Shown here: piece after piece, positions 1,217-58,104 of the stretch | Layout: the number at the start of each line of letters is the position of its first letter | Position numbering within the stretch: position 1 is the first letter of the stretch | DNA from: Pristiophorus japonicus | Lineage: Eukaryota | Assembly: GCF_044704955.1 (NCBI RefSeq) | Contig: NC_091980.1 | Span: 117,304,001 to 117,368,000 of the forward strand | Direction: 5' to 3' | Length of the DNA stretch: 64,000 bases | Notes under the pieces: generated by a model | What the model saw: the letters and a program-made list of their open reading frames with translations, nothing else | Databases searched by the model: none | Told to the model about the DNA's origin: nothing | Made by a program: the position numbers and the translations under genes

Positions 1217-1858
1217 GGGGTCGAAATTCGTTTCTTACGCCGCCTGTTACCGCCGGAGAGGGGCGGCTAACGGGCGGCTAAGTGCTTACCGTCAGCGGCG
1301 ACCGGGTTCCTCAGATCTCGGAAAATTTAGTTGGGCGGTTGGGGTGGCGCCAAGATGTACCGCTGCGCGCTCGGCCGCCACCCACATGATGACGTCGAGC
1401 GTGCAACACCCCCTTGCTGCCGCCACTGCAAAATTAGGTGAATACAGTGGCCTTACCGACAGGCATCCGTACAGCCTGGGAAAGCTGGTGGGGCATCGTG
1501 GATCCTGGGGGCAGTAGCGTCCAGAGATCAAGCTAAGTGATTATGTTTGTTTTTTTTAGGATTTATGTATTAATGGGACCAATGGGGAAGTGTCGGTGTG
1601 GGTGAGGGAAATTGTCAAACTTTTTTTTCCTTTCTCTTCCTCTCGCATGCCGACAGCTTACCGTCGGGAAATTCAGTAGGCCTCCTGAGATGCCGCAGCA
1701 TTGGCCCCCAAGGACGAGTGTGCAACGGCACTTTTAGCGCTGCTCTCTCACCTTTGGGCGGCAAAACTGAATTTGTGGCAACACCTACCGCCTGCCGTTA
1801 AAATCAGGACTCAGCCGGTGTCACCGTCTCAAAAATGGCGGGACCAAATTTCGACCCC
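1217..1858. mobile_element. Non-autonomous PIF/Harbinger-type MITE
   Basis: Perfect terminal inverted repeat GGGGTCGAAATT...AATTTCGACCCC (extends to 14 bp, 1215-1228/1847-1860); GC-rich non-coding interior. Confidence 0.75.
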
Positions 1859-2094
1859 TCAATGGATAGACATTGAATTAGAGCTGTGCAGACTTTAGGA
1901 AATCTGCAGTAAGTGCTTCCTTATTCTGTAATGTTGAGTTCCAATATTTACCTCTCTGGGCAGGTTAGATTACAGACACCACACACCACCCAAAAAAAAA
2001 CAATTTCCAATAAGGAATACCTATTACACTATTTATTATTTTATACCCCTGGTACCTCTGCCCTGCTTCAATAGAAATCTGTTGTCTCCTTTAG

Positions 2095-2241
2095 CTGTAT
2101 TTGAAGCAGTGAAGACCGGCGGAGCCCCAGGGACGACGGTTCTGCTGTGGATTGTTGCTGTTGTGGGAGGCCTGCTTTTAATTATTGCTGTCGTTATTCT
2201 CATCTACAAGAAAACCACTTCTTCCTCCCGCACCAAGATCG
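2095..2241 (+). CDS. Transmembrane exon of a type I membrane receptor (host gene; upstream exons not identified in this window)
   Basis: Acceptor ctcctttag|CT and donor ATCG|gtaag, phase 1/1; encodes AVFEAVKTGGAPGTT-VLLWIVAVVGGLLLIIAVVILIY-KKTTSSSRTKI (TM plus basic stop-transfer). Confidence 0.85.
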
Positions 2242-2638
2242 GTAAGATTGGCTTCACTGCTCGCCTGCTCTCACTCTCATATATATGTGAAATCTTGCCA
2301 CTAAGTAATACCTATGGATAAATCTTTGTCTTTATCGTCACCTATGCTGAACACAGAGAGGAAAATCGGGAGGGGAGAAACACACATCCCCAACAGAACC
2401 TCATGCTTTTCTTTCCTTGTAAATCAACGGAAGGAAAATGGGACGGGTTCTGTCTAGTTTTGCCTTCTGCGCTCCCCCCCAATGTGCTGTTTAAAGAAGG
2501 AAATCCAGCCCACTGTTCTGAAATGTAATTCTGTGGACAAAGTTACACCAACATAAATTATTGAAACAATATCCAAATGAATGGGATAGAATGAAACACT
2601 CTATGATACAGAGCTCATGTTTCTGTTCTTTGATGCAG

Positions 2639-2723
2639 CAAATTTGAGGGAAAATCTGAGTCTGGACATCAGAGTGGAATCCGCTTATGAAAACGTCTAT
2701 TACAAGGCACATGAACAAGAGCG
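2639..2723 (+). CDS. Cytoplasmic exon with ITIM-like motif SAYENV
   Basis: Acceptor ttctttgatgcag|CA and donor GCG|gtatg; phase 1 matches the upstream exon; reads ANLRENLSLDIRVESAYENVYYKAHEQER. Confidence 0.8.
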
Positions 2724-2856
2724 GTATGTTTAGATTGCAAGTATCACCCTGGGAAGTCTATCTATTGGTTTACATCCATGTAAAGTAGAGATCCTCAAAT
2801 CCTTCACTGTTGACACCAACAGTAGTGAAGCTCTTGGAGACACCACTGAATCATCA

Positions 2857-3175
2857 TTGATGGGTTTTTATAAAGTAGATCGGGAGCGACCGTTTCCACT
2901 TACAGGAGGGTTGGTAACCAGAGGCCACATATTTAAGATAATTGGCAAAAAAATTCAGAGGTGGCATGAGGAGAATTTATTTTATGCAGTGGGTTCTAAT
3001 GATCTGAAATGCACTGCCTGCAAGGGTGGTGGAAGCTGATTCAGTAGTAATTTGAAAAAAGGAATTGGAGAGGAGAAATTTGCATGGCTATGGGAAAAGT
3101 GCCAATTGGATAACAGCACAGACATAATGGGCTGAATGGCCTCCTTCTGTGCTGTATGATTGTATGATTCTAACT
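2857..3175 (+). mobile_element. Old CR1-type 3' fragment (intronic)
   Basis: KVDRERPFPL...TRGH motif and atgggctgaatggcctccttctgtgctgtatgatt tail. Confidence 0.75.
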
Positions 3176-10763: not shown

Positions 10764-13700
10764 TGTTATGTATTTAAACCTTTGTAACCTGCATTACACC
10801 TGACCACTAGAGGGCCACCTGTTGGAGTCCCAAGGGATCCCAACATCCATTGGGAGCATAGTATATAAGCAGGCCACCCACGAGGTACCTGCACTCTGGA
10901 ATCTTAATAAGGGAGCTAAGGTCGCACTTGCTCATTACACACAGTACTCAGTCTCACCATTTATTATGAGTGTAACAATTTGCGATGAGGTAACGAACAA
11001 CTGCGCGAAAATGCAAAGAACAGTCGGCATCCTGGCAAAGTTCTCAGAAGAGGATGATTGGGAGGCCTTCATGGAGAGTCTCGACCAATACTTTGCAGCC
11101 AATCAGCTAGAAGGGGACGAGAACGCCACCAAACAAAGGGCAATCCTCCTAACTGTCTGTGGAGCAACAACCTATGGCCTCATGAAGAATCTCCTGGCCC
11201 CGGCAAAACCAACAGAGAAATCCTACAAAAAATTGTGTACGCTGGTCTGGGAGCACCTAAATCCTAATGAAAGCGTTTTGATGGCGAGATATCGGTTGTA
11301 CACGTGTCAACGATCGGAGGGCCAGGAATTGGCGAGCTACGTCGCCGAACTAAGGCGCCTCGCAGGTCATTGTGAGTTTGAGCGATTCCTAGAACAAATG
11401 CTCAGATGTTTTTGTACTGGGCATCGGACATGAGACAATCCTTCGCAAACTGTTGACTGTAGAAACTCCGAATCTGAGTAAAACCATAACGATAGCCCAG
11501 GCATTTATGTCCACCAGCGACAACACCAAGCAGATTTCACAGAACAAAGAAATTTCGACCAGTATTGTACATAAAGTAACGTCGGTTTTGAGCAGAAATG
11601 TACATGGCAGAATGTACACGCCGGCTGCTGTAGCCCAACCTCAATTGACCCAGAGTCCGCCATCATCTGTTAATGCGAGGCAGTTAACACCCTGTTGGCA
11701 TTGCGGAGGTGATCATCGGCCCCATCAATATGTGTACAATGGTTGCAGAACAATGGGACACCTCCAACGAATGTACAGATGAGCTGCAAACCCTGCAAAC
11801 CGTCACGTTGCAGAGGAACGATCCATAGTGGATCAGACTGAATTGGAAACTCGTACTGAGGAAGCAGAAGTGTACGGGGTACACACGTTCACAACGAAAT
11901 GCCCACCAATAATGTTGAAAGTTGAAGTGGACAGCATTCCAGTATCTATGGAACTGGACACGAGGGCAAGTCAGTCCATAATGAGTAAAAAGACCTTCGA
12001 CAGGCTGTGGGGAAGGAAGGCACACAGGCCCAAGCTCAGCCCCATTCACACCAAACTAAAGACTTACACCAAAGAACTAATCCCTGTAATTGGCAGTGCA
12101 GAAGTCAAAGTCTCCTATGATGGAGCAGTACATGAACTCCCGTTGTGGATTGTGCCAGTGGATGGCCCCATGTTGTTTGGCAGAAGCTGCCTGGGGAAAA
12201 TCTTCTGGAACTGGGACGACATCTGAGCACTTTCGTCCGTCGACAACGTCTCATGTACCCAGGTTCTAAGCAAGTTCCCATCATTATTCGAGCCAGGCAT
12301 TGGAAGCTTCTCGGGGGCGAAAGTGCAGATCCATTTGGTTCCCGGTACGCGTCCCATATACCACAAGGCTCAGGCAGTACCGTCCATGATGCGTGAAAAA
12401 GTGGAAATTGAGCTAGACAGGCTGCAACGTGAAGGCATCATTGCGCCGGTGGAATTCAACGACTGGGCTAGTCCGATTGTCCCGGTACTCAAGGAGGACA
12501 GTACGGTTACAATTTGCGGGGACTATAAAGTAACGATTAATCATTTTTCGCTGCAGGACTAGTACCCACTACCCAAGGCAGACGACCTATTTGTGACCCT
12601 GGCTGGAGGGAAGACGTTCACCAAGCTGGACCTGACCTCGGCCTACATGACGCCGGAGCTGAAGGAGTCTTCGAATGCCCTCACCTGCATTAACATGCAC
12701 AAAGGTCTGTTTATCTACAACCAGTGCCCATTCGGGATTTGGTCGGCTGCGGCGATCTTCCAGCAGAACATGGAGAGCCTGCTAAAGTTGGTTTCTTGCA
12801 CAGTGGTCTTCCAGGATGACATATTGGTTACAGGTCGGGACACCATGGAGCACTTGAAGAATCTGGAGGAGGTTCTTAGTCGGTTGGATTGTGTGGGGCT
12901 CAGGTTGAAACACTCGAAGTGTGTTTTCCTGGCACGGGAAGGAGAATCGCAGCAGACAGCATCAGACCCACCGACGCCAAGATGGAGGCCATTAAGAACG
13001 TGCATGACCACAGAACGTGACGGAGTTGTGGTCATTCCTGGGACTCCTTAACTACTTTGGTAATTTCCTAGCACCCTGCTAGAACCCTTACTGCGCAAGG
13101 GAGATGACTGAGTATGGGGGAATTCCCATACAAGAGGCTGCCTTTAAGAAAGCCACAAATTTATTGTGCTCTAACAAACTGCTTGTCCTGTATAACCCAT
13201 GTAAACGATTAGTGTGAGCTTGCGATGCATTGTCATATGGGGTCGGGTGTGTGTTACAACAGGCTAATGAATCGGGGATTTTGCAACCGGTTGTGTATGC
13301 ATCCAGGAGTTTGTCCAAGGCCGAAAGGGCTTACAGCATGGTTGAAAAAGAGGCTCTGGTGTGCGTTTACGGGTTAAAAAAAATGCACCAGTACTTATTT
13401 GGCCTCAAGTTCAAGCTTGAAACTGACCACAAGCCGCTCATATCGCTATTCTCGGAGAGCAAAAGGATTAATTAATACCAATGCCTCTGCCCGCATCCAA
13501 AGATGGGCGCTCACACTGTTGACATACAACTATGTAATCCGCCACAGACCAGACACAGATAACTGCGCAGATACTCTCAGTCGGCTACCATCACCCACCA
13601 CCGGGGTTGAAATGGCACAGCCAGCGGACTTGCTCATGGTCATGGAGGCACTTGAGGACGAGAAGTCCCCCGTTATGGCCCGCCAGATCAGGACCTGGAC

Positions 13701-15189
13701 CAGCCAGGATCCTTGGCAAAAAACTGTGTCCTCCAGGGGAGCTGGTCCAGTGTCCCAGTGGAGATGCAGGAAGCGATTAAGCCGTTCCACAGACACAAAG
13801 ACAAGTTGCCCCTGCAGGCGGACTGTCTTTTGTGGGGCAATCGTGTGGCCTTGCCCAAGAAAGGCAGAGACACATTTATTTGCGAACTGCACAACACCCA
13901 CCCAGGCATAGTAATGATGAAAGCCATAGCCAGGTCTCACGTGCGCCAGTGCAACACTTGCTCTCAGAGAGGCACCGCTAAGTTTGTGCTCATGGCCATC
14001 CAAACCATTGTCGAGGATCCATGTAGACTATCCGGGCCCATTCCTAGGCAAAATGTTTTTGGTTGTCGTGGACGCTTACCCAAAATGGATTGAATGTGCA
14101 ATAATGTCTGTAAGCACATCCACGACCACCATTGAAAGCTTATGAGCCATGTTTGCAACACACGGCTTGCCTGATGTCCTCGACAGTGACAATGGGCCGT
14201 GTTTCACCAGTGCTGAATTCAAGGAATTCATGACCCGCAACGGGATCAAACATGTCACATCTGCCCCGTTCAACCTCGCATCCAACGGCCAGGCAGAACG
14301 GGCAGTTCAGACTATCAAGCAAAGCTTGAAACACGTGTCGGAAGGCTCCCTGCAGACCCGATTGTCCCAAGTGCTGCTCAGCTACCGCACCAGACCCCAC
14401 TCACTCACCGGGATTCCCCCAGCTGAGCCGCTCATGAAAAGGGTGCTTAAAACAAGGCTCTCTCTTGTCCACCCTGATCTCCATGATCACGTGGAGGGCA
14501 AGCAGCTTCAACAAAGTGTGTACCATGACCGCGCAAATTTGTCACACGATATTGAGATCAACGATCCTGTGTTTGTGCTGAATTATGGACAAGGTCCCAA
14601 ATGGCTCCCTGGCATGATCACAGCCAAAGAGGGGAGTAGGGTGTTTCAGGTCAAACTGACCAATGGACAAATGCACACAAAACATTTGGACCAAATCAAA
14701 TTGCAGTTCACCAACAGCTACGAAATACCCGAAGAGGACACCACCAAATTTGACCTTGCAACACACACACAAGTGGCAACTGACATCATAGTTGACCACG
14801 AAACTGAACTCATCATCCCCAGCAGACCAGCAAGGCCGGCTGCCCAACAACCCAGTGAAGAACTGACCAACCTACGCACACCAGCATTTGTATCGAGATG
14901 ATTGACAAGGAAGCGCGAAGCCCCAGATCGTCTCACCTTGTAAATAAGTGTACTGTTGACTTCATGGGGAGTGATGTTATATATTTGACCCTTTGTAACA
15001 TGCATTACACCAGGCCACCAGACGGCCCACCTGTTGGTGTCCCAAGGGATCCCAGCATCCCTTGGGAGCACAGTATATAAGCAGGCCACCCACGAGGTAC
15101 CTGCACTCTGGAATCTTAATAAAGGAGCTAAGGTCACACTTGTTCGTTACACACAGTACTCAGTCTCACCATTTATTATGAGTGTAACA
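10764..15189 (+). mobile_element. Full-length, decayed Ty3/Gypsy LTR retrotransposon
   Basis: LTRs 10764-10977 and 14975-15189 (TG...CA); 5-bp TSD GCTCT; PBS-like TTGCGATGAGG; PPT GGGGAGTGA; gag, protease (ELDTRAS), RT (FQDD), RNase H, integrase (SDNGPCF). Confidence 0.96.
11011..14943 (+). pseudogene. Gypsy gag-pol pseudogene (multiple stops and frameshifts)
   Basis: Consecutive ORF fragments from 10822 to 14901 in gag-PR-RT-RH-IN order. Confidence 0.9.
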
Positions 15190-16604: not shown

Positions 16605-16789
16605 TGTTATGTATGCAACACCTTGTAACCAGCATTCTAGCACCACCAGAGGGCGCATCTGTTGGGAGCACTGCATATAAACAGGCCTCCCATGCTGTGC
16701 CAGCACCCTGGAGTCAGAATAAAGAGACCAAGGTCACACTTACTCAAGTCTACAGTACTCAGTCAGATTGCTTTATTTGAGACATAACA
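16605..16789 (+). mobile_element. Gypsy-type solo LTR
   Basis: TGTTATG...CATAACA termini, 5-bp TSD GGGAT, TATA and AATAAA; resembles the LTRs of the 10764 element. Confidence 0.9.
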
Positions 16790-47799: not shown

Positions 47800-50700
47800 G
47801 CTGGAAATGATCAGGAAACACCAAGACTCGTTTGACGAGAACAAACAGGAGATCCAGGAGCTAATCTGTATGGGTAGAGCTGCGGAACACCAAAGGGCAG
47901 AAAATGCTAGTGGGAGTTGTGTATAGACTACCAAACAGTAGTAGTGAGGTTGGGGGATGGCATCAAACAAAAAATTAGGGATGCGTGCAATAAAAGTACA
48001 GCAGTTATCCTGGGTGACTTTAATCTATATAGATTGGTCTAACCAAACTGGTAGCAATACGATGGAGGAGGATTTCCTGAAGTGTATAAGGGATGGTTAC
48101 CATATGTCGAAGAACCAATGAGAGGACTGGCCATCCTAGACTGGGTAAGGTGTAATGAGAGAGGATTAATTAGCAATCTTGTTGTGCGAAGCCTCTTGGG
48201 GAAGAGTGACCATAAAATGGTAGAATTCTTCATTAAGATGGAGAGTGACACAGTTAATTCAGAGACTAGGGTCCTGAACTTAAAGAAAAGTAACTTCGAT
48301 GATATGAGACGTGAATTGGCTAGGATAGACTGGTGAATGATACTTAAAGGTTTGACGGTGGATAGGCAATGGCAGACATTTAAGGATCACATGGATGAAC
48401 TTCAACAATTGTACATCCCTATCTGGAGTAAAAGAAAATGGGGAAGGTGGCTCAACCATGGCTAACAAGGGAAATAGGGATAGTATTAAATCCAAGGAAG
48501 AGGCATATAAATTGGCCAGAAAAAGCAGCAAACCTGATGACTGAGAGAAATTTAGAATTCAGCAGAGGAGGACAAAGGGTTTAATTAGGAGGGGGAAAAT
48601 AGAGTATGAGAGTAAGCTTGCAGGGAACATAAAAAGTGACTTCAAAACTTCTATAGATATGTGACGAGAAAAAGATTAGTGAAGACAAATGTAGGTCCCT
48701 TGCAGTCAGAAGAAGGTGAATTTATAATGGGGAACAAAGAAATGGCAGACCAATTGAACAAATACTTTGGTTCTGTCTTCACTAAGGAAGACACAAATAA
48801 CCTTCTGGAAATACTAGGGGACCGGGAGTCTAGCGAGAAGGCGGAACTGAAAGAAATCCATATTAGTCAGGAAATTGTATTAGGGAAATTGATGGGATTG
48901 AAGGCCAATAAATCCCCAGGATCTGATAGACTGCATCCCAGAGTACTTAAGGAAGTGGCCCTAGAAATAGTGGATACATTGGTGGTTATTTTCTAACATT
49001 CTATAGACTCTGGATCAGTTCTAATTGATTGGAGAGTAGCTAATGTAACCCCACTTTTTAAAAAAGGAGGGAGAAAGAAAAGAGGGAATTATAGAATAAT
49101 TAGCCTGCCATCAGTAGTGGGGAAAATGTTGGAATCAATTATTAAAGATGTAATAGCAGCGCATTTGGAAAGCACTGACAGGATCGGTCCAAGTCAGCAT
49201 GGATTTATGAAAGGGAAATCATACTTGACAAATCTTCTAAAGTTTTTTGAGGATGTAACTAGTAGAGTGGACAAGGGAGAACCAGTGGATGTGGTTTATT
49301 TGGTCTTTCAAAAGGCTTTTGACAAGGTCCCACACAAGAGATTAGTGTGCAAAATTAAAGCACGTGGTATTGGGGGTAATGTATTGTCGTAGATAGAGAA
49401 CTGGTTGGCAGACAGGAAGCAAAGAGTAGGAATAAACGGGTCCTTTTCAGAATGGCAGGAAGTGACTAGTGGGGTACTGCAAGGTTCAGTGCTGGGACCC
49501 CAGCTATTTACAATATACATTAATGATTTAGACGAAGGAATTGAATGTAATATCTCCAAGTTTGCAGATGGCACTAAGCTGGGTGGCAATGTGAGCTGTG
49601 AGGAGGGTGCTAAGAGGCTGCAGGGTGACTTGGACAGGTTAGGTGAATGGGCAAATGCATGGCAGATGCAGTTTGATGTGGATAAATGTGAGGTTATCCA
49701 CTTTGGTGGCAAAAACAGGAAGGCAGAATATTATCTGAATGGTGACAGATTAGGAAAAGGGGAGGTGCAACGAGACCTGGGTGTCATGGTACATCAGTTA
49801 TTGAAAGTTGGCATGTAGGTACAGCAAGCGGTGAAGAAGGCAAATGGCATGTTGGCCTTCATTTCAAGAGGATTTGAGTATAGGAGCAGGGAGGTCTTAC
49901 TGCAGTTGTACAGGATCTTGGTGAGGCCACACCTTGAATATTGTGTACAGTTTTGGTCTCCTAATCTGAGGAAGGACATTCTTGCTATTGAAGGAGTGCA
50001 ACGAAGGTTCACCAGACTGCTTCCCGGGATGGCAGGACTGACACATGAAGAAAGACTGGATCGGCTAGACTTATATTCACAGGAATTTCGAAGAATGAGA
50101 GGGGACCTCATAGAAACATATAAAATTCTGACGCGATTGGACATGTTAGATGCAGGAAGAATGTTCCCGATGTTGGGGAAGTCCAGAACCAGGAGTCATA
50201 GTCTAAGGATAAGGGGTAAGGCATTTCGAACCAAAATGAGGAGAAACTTCTTCACTCAGAGAATTGTGAAACTGTGGAATTCTCTACCACAGAAAGTTGT
50301 TGAGGCCAGTTCATTAGATATATTCAAAAGGGAGTTAGATGTGGCCCTTACAGCTAAAGGGATCAAGGGGTATGGAGAGAAAGCAGGAATGGGGTACTAA
50401 AGTTGTATGATCAACCATGATCATATTGAATGGTGGTGCAGGCTCGAAGGGCCAATGGCCTACTCCTGCACCTATTTTCTATGTTTCTATGTTTCTAATA
50501 AGCCGCAAGCGCAAGGCATTTCTGAATTTAAAATAGCAACCCAACTCGAGAGCAAGAAAGTAGCTCTGCAGACAGCTGAAGGCCGAGGCCCAACAAAAAA
50601 CCCATGACCTAAAAAACAGATGGTGGATAGAGAAAGCACAGGAGATCCAGCAGTTAGCCGACAACCACAACGTGCATGGATTCTTCAGCGCAGTCAAGAC

Positions 50701-51357
50701 CACCTACTGCCCAAGCATCCAAGGCCCTATCCCACTGCTGGCGAAGAACTGTGAGGTACTCATCAAGGACAGAGAGGCAGTCAGTGCCCGTTGGAAGGAG
50801 CATTTAGAAGATCTCCTTAACCGAGACTTTGTCTTCGATGCAAGTGTCCTCGACTCCATTCTGCAGCATGCTACCCGACACCATCTCAGCACAACCCCAG
50901 CCCGGCACAAGGTAGAAAAGGCCATCCATCAGCTGAGGAATAACAAGGCAACAAGAGCAGATGGAATTCCCGCCGAAGCACTAAAGTATGGCGGAGAAGC
51001 ACTACTGGCACGAATACATGACCTAATTTCTCTTATCTGGAAGGAGGAGAGCATGCCAGGAGATCTCAGAGACATCGTAATCGTGACCACCTTCAAAAAA
51101 GGGGAGAAGTTCGACTGCGTTAACTACAGAGGAATCTCCCTGCTGTCAGCCACAGGGAAAGTCATCGCAAGAATCCTCCTCAATCGTCTTCTCCCTGTGG
51201 CTGAAGAGCTCCTCCCAGAGTCGCAATGTGGATTCCGTCCACTAAGGTGTACAACGGACATGATCTTCATTGTGCGACAACTACAAGAGAAATGCAGGAA
51301 ACAGCACCAACCCTTGTACATGGCCTTCTTTGACCTCACAAAGGCCTTTGACACTGT
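47800..51357 (+). mobile_element. RTE-clade LINE internal fragment, split by a CR1
   Basis: ARWKEHLEDLLNR, NYRGISLLSATGKV, PESQCGFR, AFFDLTKAFDTV; CTAAT duplicated around the CR1. Confidence 0.88.
47866..50497 (+). mobile_element. CR1 LINE, 5'-truncated
   Basis: EN/RT fragments and (TTTCTATG)n tail. Confidence 0.95.
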
Positions 51358-52825
51358 CCTCCTGACTGGGATCTCGCTAGACCGCAGCAGCTTCAGATAG
51401 GTCTGCATCTTTTTTCTCAGAAAGGAGAAACCGGGATTTCTGAGTCAACACTTTAGCAGGAGGCTTTATTTAGAGAAGTAGTTCTTTCCTGACCACGTGG
51501 GGTGTCACTTCCTCAAAAAGGTCAAGGGCGTTCATCAGTCCCACAAGGCTTGAACGCTTCCCTTATGCCTTGGTGATCGAAACTGAACACAGTCATCAGG
51601 GTGTGATCTAAGCAAGGCAGTTTTCGTATGACATCCTGCAACTGATATAAAACTAACGTTGCAATATAATCTGTGATGTATGTAGCACCCAAATCACTGA
51701 CTCCACACGGTCTGGTGCTGTAATAACTGCTGTGACCTTAGTCCTTTATTGTGTAACTCCAGAGTCCCTCTCAGGTGTGGTGGGCAGCCTTTTATACTCT
51801 GTCTTGCAGGTACTTTCAGGTCTCCCACCACAGCGCCCTCTGTGGCGCACCATTGTACTTATACATTTAATGTACCCAGACAATACATAACATCTCACTC
51901 CCCCCCCAGTTCCAAAGCCATTGTCGGTAACCTCGGCCTTTTCGTCCTGGTTGGTTTGTGAGTGTGAGTCCATGACCATCCACTTCCCTCTTCCCCCACC
52001 CCCCCCCATGTAGAGATTATGCTTGCGATCCGGTGCAAGCATGTGATATTTGCAGTCCTTACATGGGTGATGAAGTCACGAGTATAACCTCCAACAGAAA
52101 GCAGGTATACATAGACAGTACATTTGTATGGTACATATAATATGTGGTACAGATGTTATGTCAAAAGGTTGCAGGTGCACTGAACAGTTATTTAATCCCA
52201 GCTCCACTGGGTGAGGTACGGTGGCAGTATACTGCCCCTTTTCGCCTGAGGTAATGGGCTAGGCTGAGACAGGGTATCGCAACTAGTGCGTTGCCTCTGT
52301 TCTCAGTAGTCGCCTTAGCGGCTTATCTGCAGCCGCTGAACCATTGCAAGAATCACATAACATCAAAAATTGCATTGGCCCCTTAGGCATGTTAGTCACG
52401 GATCCATTAACCCTTTTACTTGTACCTCGTGGTATTAACTCTTCTCGTAAATCATTCATATCCATCATTTTAAACACAGTAACCATTCAGCATCAAAATA
52501 TCGACTCGTATCCTAAATCACTTCATCATACAAATCACTTTACACATTTAGACTCGCTCTTGCCTTACAAAAGTCTTTTTGTAGGGACCACCAACGGTGT
52601 AAGGCCCTTTTAAGGCTCCCGGGTGCATTTCCCTTTTAAGATGCCATCTTGTGGTTCCAATGAGGCTTCCCTTGGGCGCCGACATTTTAGTTGTACTGCT
52701 TGCTTTAGTTCTTTGTAGCCACGAGGCTCGCCACCATCTTGAGCTCGCTGGCCTGACGTATTGCTGCAGTTAAGAAGGAATAGAGGGGATAAAGAAGAGA
52801 AAAAAAAAGAAAAACGGCCACGAAC

Positions 52826-53043
52826 ATGACTGATACTGCAGCCGTATGCTGCAGCCGCCGGAACGGCTCCTCCTGCCGTCACCGCTCAAACCCAGGCTCC
52901 CAGCGAGAAGAGGAATGTGATGAATGGCTCCCTGAAGCAGATCAAGGGCACGGGCGCCTCGGGCTCATCCAAACCCCCTCGACGGATCCCCAGGGGAAAA
53001 TGGGAAAGAAGGTGAAGAAGCCAGCAGCCAAGAAATCTCCAGA
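52826..53043 (+). pseudogene. Captured, internally deleted linker histone H1 coding fragment
   Basis: MTDTAA..TAPPAVTAQTQAPS / KRNVMNGSLKQIKGTGASGSSK / GKMGKKVKKPAAKKSP; KGTGASGS is the H1 globular-domain signature. Confidence 0.85.
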
Positions 53044-53594
53044 GTTATATTTCTTGATATCACTGTCACTCAGAATCAGCGCTCCGTTTTTTAATTCTTC
53101 CCATCTGCCCAGTAGGGAGTATTTCAGACTTCTTGTAATTTACGTACTCACGTTTTAGGGGCCTAGCACCGCACATAACAGTTCGTTCTTGTTCTGTTCG
53201 CCATACTGGTAGAGCCGGCTGAGGATGGTGTGGAGCAGCCGCCCTTCGCACTCGCCCTCGCTGGGCCCGCTCTTCGCCCATCGCACAACACACCGCGCCG
53301 GCACCGGCAACTTCCTGGCGTCACAGGCGCACGTCCTACAGCTGGCTGCCTCCGTAGCCTCCTCTGCCGCTGTAGCCCCAGTAACTGCCGCCTCTCCTGC
53401 GGTCGCCGTAGCTGCCACCACTGCCACCTGACTTTTTCTGCGCACGGCACCCCCTCCCCGGTTTGCCGGCCGTCGATGGGTTTGCCATTCAACGCCTGCT
53501 CTTCCAGGGTCTGCTCGTCTGTGTGTGGCTTCTTCCTCCTCCAGCTCGGTCGGCGGTGCTCTTTGGAAACCCGGGGAACGGCGGTCTGTGGAGG

Positions 53595-54817
53595 AATGAA
53601 GTCTTCCCAGCTCCCACGGACCTTCTCCATCCACCTCCTGCCAAGAAGCGTCGGCCCATCGCCTGCAATGACCCACAAAGGTAAACCGTGCATCTCGCCC
53701 CCGTGAGATACCTGCACATCTGCTCTGCCGAGGACAGGAATCAGTTTCTTGGTGTAGGTACGCAGCTTTGCTGTGACCGGGACCAGCTTGGGTCATGCAG
53801 CTGGATTAATCCACAGTTTATCAAAAGTTCTCTGACTCATCAACGACAGACCCGATCCAGTGTCCACTTCCATACTCACTGGGACTCCATTAATCTTGAC
53901 CTCCATAATCACTGGAGCTGAATCGTCGGTGCACATATATAGTCCAAGCACCTCATCTTCTTCTGCCTGCTCCTCGCTGGATGGTGGATCATCTGCCATC
54001 TCCTCAGCCGCACGGTGAGTCAGGTTTCTTTTGCACATACGCTGAAGGTGGCCTTTCGTGTGGCAGGTATTGCACGTATACTCCGCAAGCCTGCACCGGT
54101 AAGCCCATGGCTTCCTCCACAGCGCCAGCATGGTGCTACTCGATTAGCCCCCCTCGGCAGACTCTGAGTTCCAAGACCCCGAGGTCCATGCTCTCTGTCC
54201 TGGGCAGAGCCACGTTCTGCAGCTTTGTCCGTGGTGGGCGCTATCCTGTGAATAGTACCTGCCGGGTTCGAGACCGTGTAGATCATCCGCTTGGTGCTGC
54301 AAGTCGAGGTCATAAATGCCCGGCTGATGGTGATGGCTTGCTTCAGGGTGACTGTAGGTTCATGGGATAGCAGCTTGTGAAGAAGCCCCTCATGGCCAAT
54401 CCCCATAACAAAGACGTCTCGCAAAGCCTCGTCAAGGTGTGTGTCAAAATCACACGGCGCCGCGAGTCTCCTGAGGTCCGCAGCATATTTGGTGACATCC
54501 TGGCCCTCAGGTCTGCAGTGGTGGTATAATTTGTGCTTGGCCGTGAGGATGCTCTCCTTCGGTTTCAGTTGGTCACGAATGAGTGCGATCAGCTCCTCAC
54601 ATGACTTGTCCCTCGCGCTCGCGGGTGCCAGCAAATCCCTGAAGAAACAGTAAACCTCATCACCACAACTGGAAAGTAATATCGCCTTACGCTTCGCTCT
54701 CATTGCATCCGTGTCCACCGTCAGGTCGTTTGCTGTGAAGTAGTACTCAAGCCTTTCCGTAAAGGCCTCCCAATCATTGCCCACCGTAAAATCCTTTAGC
54801 AAGCCCAGAGTAGCCAT
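53595..54817 (-). pseudogene. Gypsy gag and aspartic protease (frameshifted)
   Basis: DWEAFTERLEYYF, CWRCGG and CHTKGH knuckles, EVDTGSG, PTLLGRRW. Confidence 0.9.
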
Positions 54818-55364
54818 GGTTGCATGAAGCTCGTCCGTGTCCTTGTCACCAATGTGATGTATGTAGCACTCAAATCACTGACTCCACACGGTCTGGTGTT
54901 GTAGTAACTGCTGTGACCTTAGTCCTTTATTGTGTAACTCCAGAGTCTCTCTCAGGTGTGGTGGGCAGCCTTTTATACTCTGTCTTGCAGGTACTTTCAG
55001 GTCTCCCACCACAGCGCCCTCTGTGGAGCACCATTGTACTTATACATTTAATGTACCTGGACAATACATAACATAATCTAAAACCATTGTTGCATGTATT
55101 TATCAGATTGTTCTTACATAGCAACTGTTCAAATTCCCTTGTAATAATTGATCTCATTATTCGAGTATAAATTGATGTGTGACTGGTGGATGTGTAGTTG
55201 TCCAGTTTAGATTTCCCCCTTCCTTGTATATAGTTACTATGTTGGCTTGATTCCAATTGTTGAGGCAAAATCATGGGCACATCATCCACATTTTCCAGAT
55301 TCCATTGCCAATAGCCAAGGCTCCAGTCTTCGCCAATTAGGAATAATCAGCCCTTAGAAACCAC

Positions 55365-57476
55365 ATAGATGAACTACAACAATTGTACATTCCTGTCTGG
55401 CGTAAAAATAAAAAAGGGAAGGTGGCTCAACCGTGGCTATCAAGGGAAATCAGGGATAGTATTAAAGCCAAGGAAGTGGCATACAAATTGGCCAGAAATA
55501 GCAGCGAACCCGGGGACTGGGAAAAATTTAGAACTCAACAGAGGAGGACAAAGGGTTTGATTAGGGCAGGGAAAATGGAGTACGAGAAGAAGCTTGCAGG
55601 GAACATTAAGACGGATTGCAAAAGTTTCTATAGATATGTAAAGAGAAAAAGGTTAGTAAAGACAAACGTAGGTCCCCTGCAGTCAGAATCAGGGGAAGTC
55701 ATAACGGGGAACAAAGAAATGGCGGACCAATTGAACAAGTACTTTGGTTCGGTATTCACTAAGGAGGACACAAACAACCTTCCGGATATAAAAGGGGTCG
55801 GAGGGTCTAGTAAGGAGGAGGAACTGAGGGAAATCCTTATTAATCAGGAAATTGTGTTGGGGAAATTGATGGGATTGAAGGCCGATAAATCCCCAGGGCC
55901 TGATGGACTGCATCCCAGAGTACTTAAGGAGGTGGCCTTGGAAATAGCGGATGCATTGACAGTCATTTTCCAACATTCCATTGATTCTGAATCAGTTCCT
56001 ATGGAGTGGAGGGTAGCCAATGTAACCCCACTTTTTAAAATAGGAGGGAGAGAGATAACAGGGAATTATAGACCGGTCAGCCTGACATCGGTAGTGGGTA
56101 AAATGATGGAATCAATTATTAAGGCTGTCATAGCAGTGCATTTGGAAAGAGGTGACATGATAGGTCCAAGTCAGCATGGATTTGTGAAAGGGAAATCATG
56201 CTTGACAAATCTTCTGGAATTTTTTCAGGATGTTTCCAGTAGAGTGGACAAGGGAGAACCAGTTGATGTGGTATATTTAGACTTTCAGAAGGCTTTCGAC
56301 AAGGTCCCACACAAGAGATTAATGTGCAAAGTTAAAGCACATGGGATTGGGGGTAGTGTGCTGACATGGATTGAGAACTGGTTGGCAGACAGGAAGCAAA
56401 GAGTAGGAGTAAATGGGGACTTTTCAGAATGGCAGGCAGTGACTAGTAGGGTACCGCAAGGTTCTGTGCTGGGGCCCCAGCTGTTTACACTGTACATTAA
56501 TGATTTAGACGAGGGGATTAAATGTAGTATCTCCAAATTTGCGGATGACACTAAGTTGGGTGGCAGTTTGAGCTGCGAGGAGGATGCTATGAGGCTGCAG
56601 AGCGACTTGGATAGGTTAGGTGAGTGGGCAAATGCATGGCAGATGAAGTATAATGTGGATAAATGTGTGGTTATCCACTTTGGTGGTAAAAACAGAGAGA
56701 CAGACTATTATCTGAATGGTGACAGATTAGGAAAAGGGGAGGTGCAAAGAGACCTGGGTGTCATGGTACATCAGTCATTGAAGGTTGGCATGCAGGTACA
56801 GCAGGCAGTTAAGAAAGCAAATGGCATGTTGGCCTTCATAGCGAGGGGATTTGAGTACAGGGGCAGGGAGGTGTTGCTACAGTTGTACAGGGCCTTGGTG
56901 AGGCCACACCTGGAGTATTGTGTACAGTTTTGGTCTCCTAACCTGAGGAAGGACATTCTTGCTATTGAGGGAGTGCAGTGAAGGTTCACCAGACTGATTC
57001 CCGGGATGGTGGGACTGACCTATCAAGAAAGACTGGATCAAATGGGCTTGTATTCACTGGAGTTCAGAAGAATGAGAGGGGACCTCATAGAAACGTTTAA
57101 AATTCTGACGGGGTTAGACAGGTTAGATGCAGGAAGAATGTTCCCAATGTTGGGAAGTCCAGAACCAGGGGACACAGTCTAAGGATAAGGGGTAAGCCAT
57201 TTAGGACCGAGATGAGGAGGAATTTCTTCACCCAGAGAGTGGTGAACCTGTGGAATTCTCTACTACAGAAAGTTGTTGAGGCCAATTCACTAAATATATT
57301 CAAAAAGGAGTTAGATGAAGTCCTTACTACTAGAGGGATCAAGGGGTATGGCGAGAAAGCAGGAATGGGGTACTGAAGTTGCATGTTCAGCCATGAACTC
57401 ATTGAATGGTGGTGCAGGCTCGAAGGGCCGAATGGCCTACTCCTGCACCTATTTTCTATGTTTCTATGTTTCTATG
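55365..57476 (+). mobile_element. CR1 LINE, 5'-truncated, well preserved
   Basis: 532-aa open RT ORF 55383..56981; (TTTCTATG)n tail. Confidence 0.96.
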
Positions 57477-57780
57477 AGGCTGGAGTCAGAGGAACAAAGA
57501 GCTTGGGGGAAGTCAACCTTGTAGTGCTGAAGGACGTTACAGAGATAAGGAGAGGGGAGGCCAGAATTAATGGTGATAATAATGTGCATATAATCAAGAC
57601 GGTTTATAAAAAGGCTGTTGTGCCCCACACAATTTTCAAAAATGTGTTATGATTATACCAACAAGTGTTAGAATCAAAATAAGTGTTGGTTCCTGAGGTT
57701 TACACAGTACAAATCATCCCCTCCCTATCGCGAACATTCAAACCAGAAAAAGGTGGCCAGCACTGTCGAACAATCCATAG

Positions 57781-57990
57781 ATAGGCAAGGATATTAACCC
57801 CAGCCAATGGACAGGCATAGATAGCAACCCTAGCCAATAGGCAGGTAAGGAAACCAACCCCAGCCAATAGGGAGGTAAGGATAACAACCCCAGCCAATAG
57901 GCAGATAAGGATAACAACCCCAGCCAATAGGGAGGTAAGGAAACCAACCCCAACCAATAGGGAGGTGGGGAAAGTAACCCCAGCCATATA
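57781..57990 (+). repeat. 30-bp minisatellite, 7 units, CCAAT-containing
   Basis: Unit about GGAGGTAAGGATAACAACCCCAGCCAATAG in exact 30-bp register. Confidence 0.92.
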
Positions 57991-58104
57991 AGCAGTCAGG
58001 AGGCTAATGTGGTCCGGCTATTGAAAGGGACTAAGACACCCACCAGGCAGGTGACCTGCTTGCCCCCACAGCTTCCCACTTGGGTGTTAAACTTCACCCT
58101 TAAG

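What the first reader, a model, noticed from the sequence alone, without database searches (positions are those of the whole stretch)
51672..55073. Young gag-protease-only Gypsy element whose pol is replaced by foreign cargo
Seen: LTRs about 97% identical, with TSD, PBS and PPT intact and gag and protease present. RT, RNase H and integrase are absent; about 1.6 kb (51900-53550) is a mosaic of compositionally different segments. The matched LTRs and TSD are consistent with the cargo having been mobilised with the element. Established: LTR-mediated retroposition of host mRNA by template switching is known in other animals and in plants. Inference: a Pack-type LTR vehicle that shuffles host gene fragments.
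Basis: partly seen in the sequence, partly recalled or inferred. Interest (0 to 1): 0.75.

Follow-up and report, generated by a model that had tools for sequence, protein, structure and literature searches.

The report
Shark retrotransposon carrying two captured genes
A dead shark jumping gene that lacks its copying enzymes carries scraps of two host genes (a histone and a ribosome-assembly factor) facing each other and seems to have multiplied with them, a known kind of gene capture with an unusual back-to-front twist.

Summary
The element is real: minus strand, 221-bp LTRs 96.8% identical, 5-bp TSD, PBS, PPT, broken gag-protease, and no trace of RT, RNase H or integrase. The '1.6 kb cargo' is two things. 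About 0.9 kb (51908-52770) is a tail shared by roughly 10^3 copy-equivalents of the family; it is not pol and its origin is unknown. Only about 570 bp (52815-53377) is low-copy cargo. It holds C1orf131/FSAF1 pieces in the element's sense, with two internal deletions, and a shark histone H1 piece in antisense, with one deletion. No flanking TSD or poly(A) tail was found. About 40 copy-equivalents share this copy's damaged H1 letters, while the insertion site is single-copy, so the cargo probably multiplied with the element. Best reading: reverse-transcriptase template switching onto two host mRNAs inside an already non-autonomous gag-protease Gypsy family, then mobilisation in trans. This is the mechanism of Tan et al. 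2016 (PMC5131818). 'Young' is doubtful at shark mutation rates. New member of a known kind; the opposite orientation of the two donors is the one unusual trait.

The parts
51667..51671 (.). Target site duplication, left copy (TAATC)
51672..51892 (-). 3' LTR, 221 bp
   Evidence: summed depth 416,000-480,000 in X1
51893..51907 (-). Polypurine tract next to the 3' LTR
51908..52770 (-). Family-wide non-coding 3' tail, not pol-derived, origin unknown; upper boundary approximate
   Evidence: summed depth 12,000-76,000 per bin in X1, also covered in X5, X6 and in X8 of a second organism; no pol similarity; no pol family in Pfam, no Rfam match
52771..52814 (.). Purine-rich linker (pyrimidine tract on the element's sense strand, splice-acceptor-like); either H1 5' UTR or subfamily-specific element sequence
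   Evidence: depth about 1,200 at 52795, like the H1 piece and unlike the tail; assignment not settled
52815..53041 (+). Histone H1 fragment, antisense to the element: start codon at 52826, residues 1-22 joined to about 83-127, deletion between two lysine runs, a 13-bp insertion and a 1-nt shift
   Evidence: 18 of 18 hits are Pristiophorus japonicus histone H1-like, best E 5.6e-8; piecewise 6/6, 12/16, 20/22, 19/20 identical residues to P0004
53042..53051 (.). Short junction between the converging 3' ends of the two cargo pieces; an 8-bp inverted repeat spans it (53029-53036, 53049-53056)
   Evidence: such a repeat in 4 of 145 interior windows, junction windows included; a second copy with a deleted form of the same junction, joint 53019 to 53131 at depth 29.7
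53052..53136 (-). C1orf131/FSAF1 fragment, C-terminal piece, sense to the element
   Evidence: weak collinear second stretch to human C1orf131 residues 257-270; X6 contigs hold this piece with other sequence on both sides; the last residues rest partly on recall of the human protein
53132..53196 (-). C1orf131/FSAF1 fragment, middle piece (human residues 192-213)
   Evidence: Pfam FSAF1 E 1.3e-4, 22.7 bits, under the curated cut-off of 27; PDB 7mq8_NE E 6.4e-4; ESM Atlas first two clusters FSAF1, scores 0.88 and 0.86, a lead only
53197..53377 (-). GC-rich piece, probably the 5' UTR and N-terminus of the same FSAF1 mRNA
   Evidence: an X5 contig of 500 nt, depth 262.6, holds exactly 53197-53377 (21 other letters, 1 gap) at one of its ends, with 314 nt of other sequence on the downstream side; the gene assignment rests on position and a recalled motif, and Pfam and PDB searches of this piece found nothing
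53378..53600 (-). Element-derived linker behind the protease, not RT
   Evidence: P0019 shares its first ten residues, then differs; depth 12,680 at 53567; one contig joins 53387 to 52145
53601..54817 (-). Gag (zinc-knuckle-like motifs) and aspartic protease of a Gypsy element, broken by one frameshift and one stop
   Evidence: 81% and 77% identical to P0019
54840..54851 (-). Primer binding site, one base behind the 5' LTR; tRNA-Ser-like (recalled, no tRNA compared here)
   Evidence: variants in other copies table 5c
54853..55073 (-). 5' LTR, 221 bp
55074..55078 (.). Target site duplication, right copy (TAATC)

Best explanation
A dead copy of an abundant shark Gypsy family that encodes gag and protease only and is mobilised in trans by an autonomous partner's RT and integrase. 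In one sub-branch, during reverse transcription in the particle, the RT left the element template and copied parts of two co-packaged host mRNAs before returning. C1orf131/FSAF1 was taken in the element's sense, as a minus-strand jump gives, with two further skips inside the mRNA. Histone H1 was taken in antisense, which needs an antisense or cDNA template or, most likely, a jump of the growing plus strand onto H1 mRNA, which it copied towards its 5' end with one skip between lysine-codon runs. Because LTRs, PBS and PPT stayed intact, the chimera transposed again, to some tens of copies. Shown: anatomy, absence of pol, identity and orientation of the H1 piece and of the FSAF1 middle piece, deletions, relative depths. 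Inferred: mRNA templates, template switching, order of events, trans-mobilisation, plus-strand jump.
For: Intact cis signals and TSD around the whole unit. No pol relic against shuffles and a positive control. H1: 18 of 18 hits, best E 5.6e-8. FSAF1: Pfam E 1.3e-4, PDB E 6.4e-4, Atlas lead. No direct repeat of 6 bp or more that flanks a whole cargo block at its ends, and no poly(A) at either 3' end; both pieces keep their 5' side and lose their 3' side, the reverse of LINE-type insertion. The H1 deletion joins two lysine runs; the second FSAF1 deletion sits at a 5-nt shared word if the donor keeps the conserved Tyr-Lys codons (table 7 plus inference). At 52969, 674 of 961 depth units in X1 carry this copy's Phe-to-Ser change in the H1 globular domain and 287.5 carry the H1 letter; at 52975-52980 all 674-784 carry this copy's letters; the flank contig is at 16.6, so about 40 copy-equivalents. 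Another contig links the H1 piece to the FSAF1 piece across a different deletion (table 5). The same set of traits defines LTR-mediated retrocopies in PMC5131818 (abstract, first two of eight parts, passages).
Against: No genome was available, so no second full-length cargo-bearing element with its own LTRs and TSD was seen; no laid contig spans the cargo and an LTR. Summed contig depth is, by the tool's own warning, not a copy number. The exon structure of the shark FSAF1 gene was not available, so loss of introns is not shown; H1 is intronless (own knowledge) and cannot show it. Microhomology at the outer element-mRNA junctions was not tested. The FSAF1 Pfam score is under the curated cut-off, and its 5' piece got no database hit. 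A faint nucleotide likeness of 53219-53366 to the neighbour's pol (z 2.6-2.9 in 2 of 11 interior windows; E 5e-4 in an off frame) remains, though the same stretch is held by the X5 contig in another context.
Confidence: 0.72

Rival explanations
1. Capture by template switching removed pol itself: an autonomous element with this tail as its 3' UTR lost RT, RNase H and integrase in the same event that brought in the cargo.
For: Gag-protease depth (108,000-573,000) is several times the tail depth (12,000-76,000), so family members of other builds exist. Replacement of internal ORFs is the rule in PMC5131818.
Against: The non-RT sequence right behind the protease is itself high-copy (12,680 at 53567) and is shared with P0019, whereas gag-pol relatives run on into RT there. 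The cargo is one to two orders of magnitude rarer than the tail.
Confidence: 0.12
2. The H1 and FSAF1 pieces were inserted into a resting element by LINE machinery or DNA repair, and the element then transposed with them.
For: CR1-like and other LINE fragments flank the element. Microhomology at deletions also arises in end joining (own knowledge). Opposite orientation of the two pieces is easier to explain at the DNA level.
Against: No TSD and no poly(A) at the cargo ends; the A9 run at 52800 lies upstream of the H1 start. Both pieces are 3'-truncated and reach their start codons or beyond.
Confidence: 0.12
3. The interior is heavily decayed pol.
For: Faint likeness of 53219-53366 to the neighbour's RNase H-integrase linker.
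Against: Best 22.3 bits, the median of 30 shuffles, against up to 164 for the control; gag and protease of the same copy align well, so pol of the same age would too; two host genes identified instead.
Confidence: 0.02

Closest known systems
LTR-mediated retrocopies of animals (Tan et al. 2016, Genome Res 26:1663, PMC5131818; abstract, first two of eight parts and passages read)
   Same: Partial host mRNA between the two halves of one LTR element, both LTRs kept, no poly(A) or own TSD, two parental genes in one unit (as CG4799_CG11924_r), further transposition as a non-autonomous element.
   Different: Host is a shark (the word shark does not occur in that paper); the two donors face each other (the words orientation and opposite do not occur in its main text; its supplements were not read and may hold such cases); internal skips inside each donor; tens of copies; the vehicle seems to have lacked pol beforehand; no in-frame fusion survives.
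TR-GAG non-autonomous LTR elements of plants (Chaparro et al. 2015, PMC4350172; start of abstract and passages read)
   Same: Under 4 kb, LTRs, PBS, PPT, 5-bp TSD, gag kept, RT, RNase H and integrase absent, multi-copy.
   Different: TR-GAG is defined without a recognisable aspartic protease, the type element is Copia-related and from plants; this element has a Pfam-level protease, Gypsy relatives, an animal host and host-gene cargo.
Mag lineage of Ty3/Gypsy (as described for Culex in PMC3286476; passages read)
   Same: Short LTRs of about 200 bp, 5-bp TSD, PBS of tRNA-Ser type (the tRNA match is recalled), no env.
   Different: Lineage is assigned on RT, which this element lacks; Mag is a resemblance only.
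Maize Bs1 and Pack-type DNA transposons (Bs1 as cited in PMC5131818; Pack-MULE and Pack-TIR from the search listing of PMC8277862)
   Same: Mobile unit carrying fragments of several unlinked host genes.
   Different: Bs1 is a plant element; Pack elements are DNA transposons. A diverse cargo population has not been shown for this family.

Membership tests
Ty3/Gypsy LTR retrotransposon | Two direct LTRs with TG...CA ends, TSD, PBS, PPT | tested here: met
Ty3/Gypsy LTR retrotransposon | Gag and protease related to elements with RT-RNase H-integrase order | tested here: met
   12 relatives, 10 of 12 with the RT family PF00078; P0022 aligns in order along the full-length neighbour at 11023-14940
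Ty3/Gypsy LTR retrotransposon (autonomous) | RT, RNase H, integrase | tested here: not met
Mag lineage | RT phylogeny | not testable with these tools
   the element has no RT
Mag lineage | PBS for tRNA-Ser or tRNA-Leu | tested here: inconclusive
   PBS read; match to tRNA-Ser is recalled, no tRNA gene in the window to compare
LTR-mediated retrocopy (Tan et al. 2016) | Host gene fragment between 5' and 3' parts of the same LTR family, both LTRs present | tested here: met
LTR-mediated retrocopy (Tan et al. 2016) | No L1-type hallmarks (poly(A), own TSD, 5' truncation) | tested here: met
LTR-mediated retrocopy (Tan et al. 2016) | Intron loss: exon-exon junction in the copy | not testable with these tools
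   no genome; no exon map in PMC11203618 passages
LTR-mediated retrocopy (Tan et al. 2016) | Microsimilarity at element-mRNA switch points | tested here: inconclusive
   seen or inferred at two internal deletions and as an inverted 8-mer at the H1-FSAF1 junction; outer junctions lack donor and empty-element sequence
LTR-mediated retrocopy (Tan et al. 2016) | Element discontinuous at the cargo (replacement, not interruption) | not testable with these tools
   needs a cargo-free sister element; only a partial joint 52145 to 53387 seen
LTR-mediated retrocopy (Tan et al. 2016) | Further transposition of the chimera | tested here: inconclusive
   about 40 copy-equivalents share derived H1 letters against a single-copy flank, but no second insertion site was read
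TR-GAG | Under 4 kb, LTR, PBS, PPT, gag, no RT, RNase H or integrase | tested here: met
   3,402 bp
TR-GAG | No aspartic protease similarity | tested here: not met
   Pfam Asp_protease_2 above cut-off; criterion from PMC4350172

The most novel reading that the evidence does not exclude
Shark gag-protease-only Gypsy families act as a standing Pack-type vehicle that captures host mRNA on both strands of one reverse-transcription cycle, including histone mRNA by plus-strand mispriming, and the amplified subfamily, which transcribes about 215 nt antisense to histone H1, feeds small RNAs that act on the H1 gene cluster or on FSAF1.
Probability: 0.1. Interest if true: 0.72.

Novelty: new member of a known kind. 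Interest (0 to 1): 0.42.

Why it matters
It extends LTR-mediated gene capture to cartilaginous fishes with two named donors, and it preserves an arrangement (one donor sense, one antisense, 3' ends meeting) that the standard minus-strand template-switch model does not give. If the subfamily is confirmed in the assembly, it is a natural record of template jumps on both strands and a testable source of antisense histone H1 RNA. As it stands the copy is dead, and no new protein or function is shown. Two paper searches on sharks with LTR terms and two on capture with histone or antisense terms listed no description of such an element; the library lacks most subscription journals and Repbase.

Tried and rejected
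Decayed pol: rejected; the off-frame E 5e-4 match was the best of many tiny matches and is not seen with 12 other pol proteins. Rfam: 0 matches. The 96-aa Ala-rich frame 53155-53445: its 2 HMMER hits P0020 and P0021 are repetitive proteins with spurious matches; PDB none for 53158-53430 on either strand. The Gly-Arg-rich frame 53331-53465: no Atlas hit. Weak Pfam hits AFG1_ATPase, GLOD4_N, TMEM128, SSRP1_C (E 0.009-0.08) were taken as chance. A donor-like GTGAGT at 53153 was first read as a host exon end, then dropped because it lies inside the FSAF1 coding piece. No histone stem-loop motif in the element. Metagenome scan: 2 loci of 151 candidate stretches, distant or 13 residues only, not used. 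Expression: no RNA holder listed; X5, X6 and X8 are of unrecorded kind, so their depth is not used as expression. In X8 (second organism) all contigs over 52969-52980 carry H1-type letters; contigs cannot show absence, so no dating is drawn from it. Searches of earlier scan findings by sequence found nothing, nor did words for H1 or FSAF1.
Full report
Observation. The element spans 51672-55073 on the minus strand. The LTRs are 221 bp, begin TG and end CA, and differ at 7 of 221 positions, 6 of them transitions. TAATC flanks both ends, the PBS starts one base behind the 5' LTR, and a PPT abuts the 3' LTR. Gag starts at 54817 and is followed by zinc-knuckle-like motifs and an aspartic protease (Pfam E 2.8e-5). 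The frame is broken by a shift near 54100 and a stop near 53795. The closest named proteins are from the sawshark Pristiophorus japonicus, so the host is a shark. No genome was held for the window.

Pol is absent. All 12 gag-pol relatives align over gag and protease, and their alignments end at 53553-53628. On 51893-53590 their best match is 22.3 bits. The maxima of 30 local shuffles were 20.8-26.9, and an equal length of the decayed pol of a neighbouring element gave up to 164. At nucleotide level the neighbour gave z 5-25 over gag-protease and at most 2.9 over the interior. None of 49 interior frames scanned, of 51 listed, hit a pol family. One faint off-frame likeness at 53217-53354 (E 5e-4) is the only result in the other direction.

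The interior is two things. Contigs of four public runs were laid on 51450-54852 (25,350 pieces from X1, about 72% of that run read). The flank contig has depth 16.6. Summed depth is 416,000-480,000 on the LTR, 108,000-573,000 on gag-protease, 12,000-76,000 on 51906-52817, 1,500-3,100 on 52818-53045, and 220-1,100 on 53046-53387. Divided by 16.6 this is about 27,000, 19,000, 2,800, 140 and 34. The tool warns that these sums are not copy numbers, so I use only their order of magnitude. The 0.9 kb next to the PPT is therefore family sequence, also covered in a run of a second organism. What it once was is unknown; it could be very old cargo. The sequence right behind the protease is also shared: P0019, a 440-aa gag-protease model, has the same first ten residues there and no RT, and depth at 53567 is 12,680. 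So the vehicle most likely lacked pol before the capture described here.

Cargo 1, histone H1, antisense. 52826-53041 on the plus strand matches shark H1: 18 of 18 hits among 100 candidates are named histone H1-like, best E 5.6e-8. Piece by piece it gives residues 1-6, 7-22, 83-104 and 108-127 of P0004 at 6/6, 12/16, 20/22 and 19/20 identity. About 60 codons are missing between the lysine run after residue 22 and the lysine pair at 83-84, a natural microhomology. The piece begins upstream of the start codon and stops early in the C-terminal tail.

Cargo 2, C1orf131/FSAF1, sense. 53129-53200 on the minus strand matches Pfam FSAF1 (E 1.3e-4, 22.7 bits, cut-off 27) and human C1orf131 residues 192-213 in PDB 7mq8 (E 6.4e-4), followed at once by a weak collinear stretch at 257-270. 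The two best Atlas clusters are FSAF1 (0.88, 0.86; a lead only). C1orf131 is a small-subunit processome factor (PMC11203618, passages). Contigs support three pieces. X6 holds 53052-53136 with other sequence on both sides. X5 holds 53197-53377 at one end of a 500-nt contig and goes on for 314 nt where the window jumps. I read the GC-rich piece as the 5' UTR and N-terminus of the same mRNA; this rests on position and on a recalled motif, and direct searches of that piece found nothing. The second deletion sits at a 5-nt word shared by both ends, if the donor keeps the conserved Tyr-Lys codons (inference table 7).

Junctions. No direct repeat of 6 bp or more frames either cargo block at its ends (three chance-like 6-mers were found among six junction pairs), and there is no poly(A) at a 3' end. 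The 3' ends of the two pieces meet at 53042-53051, across an 8-bp inverted repeat; such a repeat occurs in 4 of 145 interior windows, junction windows included.

Did the cargo move with the element? At 52969, 287.5 of 961.2 depth units in X1 carry the H1 letter, and the other 674 carry this copy's Phe-to-Ser change in the globular domain. At 52975-52980 all 674-784 units carry this copy's letters, while X8 contigs there carry H1-type letters. One X1 contig (depth 29.7) joins the H1 piece to the FSAF1 piece across a different deletion. With a single-copy flank this points to about 40 copy-equivalents of the damaged chimera. No contig links the cargo to an LTR, so this is likely, not shown.

Age. 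K2P distance 0.033 gives about 2.3e7 generations at 7e-10 per site per generation, and 1.2e7-1.2e8 over that study's interval (PMC10587355, passages). The rate comes from another shark and there are only 7 differences, but 'young' is not warranted, and the broken gag-protease agrees.

Mechanism. A gag-protease-only RNA is packaged and copied by a partner's RT and integrase (inferred from established LTR biology). A minus-strand jump onto FSAF1 mRNA near its stop codon, two skips, run-off near the 5' end and return to the element linker explain the sense piece. The antisense H1 piece cannot come from a minus-strand jump onto H1 mRNA. A plus-strand jump onto H1 mRNA with run-off in the 5' UTR fits best; an antisense RNA or an H1 cDNA template are alternatives. 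I put the overall capture-and-amplify reading at 0.72 and the plus-strand step at about one half within it.

Comparison. This works like the LTR-mediated retrocopies of Tan et al. 2016 (PMC5131818), which include two-gene chimeras and re-mobilised units. Two defining features are met, two could not be tested (intron loss, replacement of element sequence) and two are inconclusive. It resembles plant TR-GAG in build but fails the no-protease criterion (PMC4350172). Mag lineage is a resemblance only (PMC3286476). Earlier unchecked notes of this scan describe ray and shark LTR families that carry SH3KBP1, RABEP1, CLIP1 or KMT2D pieces. They are leads, not support, and suggest that such capture is common in cartilaginous fishes, which lowers the surprise of this case. 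Supplements of PMC5131818 were not read and may hold antisense cases.

Verdict. A real, dead, non-autonomous Gypsy element with about 570 bp of cargo from two host genes in opposite orientation, probably amplified to tens of copies. New member of a known kind; interest 0.42.

Noticed in passing
window 10764-15189 (+): Full-length but decayed Gypsy relative with gag, protease, RT, RNase H and integrase in order, LTRs 85-95% alike and a very short 3' UTR; used as comparator and positive control.
   Followed up: partly
window 16605-16746 (+): Third, more distant copy of that neighbour's LTR, probably a solo LTR.
   Followed up: no
window 48388-50499 and 55347-57476 (+): Two LINE fragments about 85% alike, CR1-like by recall, ending in short tandem tails; another RT fragment at 50564-51400.
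   Followed up: no
window 57747-58016: Tandem array of 30-bp units behind the second LINE fragment.
   Followed up: no
window 52764-52815 (-): Strong splice-acceptor-like pyrimidine tract at the start of the family tail, followed by a YY1-like word at 52740 (motifs recalled). It could let the element splice out cargo or splice gag into the tail; untested.
   Followed up: no
window 52145-53387: One X1 contig (depth 27.2, 21 letters on the short side) skips 1,241 bp, a possible shorter family member without the cargo and most of the tail.
   Followed up: no
window 53539-53582: Contigs of X5 and X6 leave the window's sequence here, so the family has several different sequences behind the protease (table 7); these could be other subfamilies or other cargo.
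   Followed up: no
P0016, P0018: Two annotated shark H1 proteins have N-termini that match repeated pieces elsewhere in the window, probably gene-model artefacts from LINE sequence.
   Followed up: no
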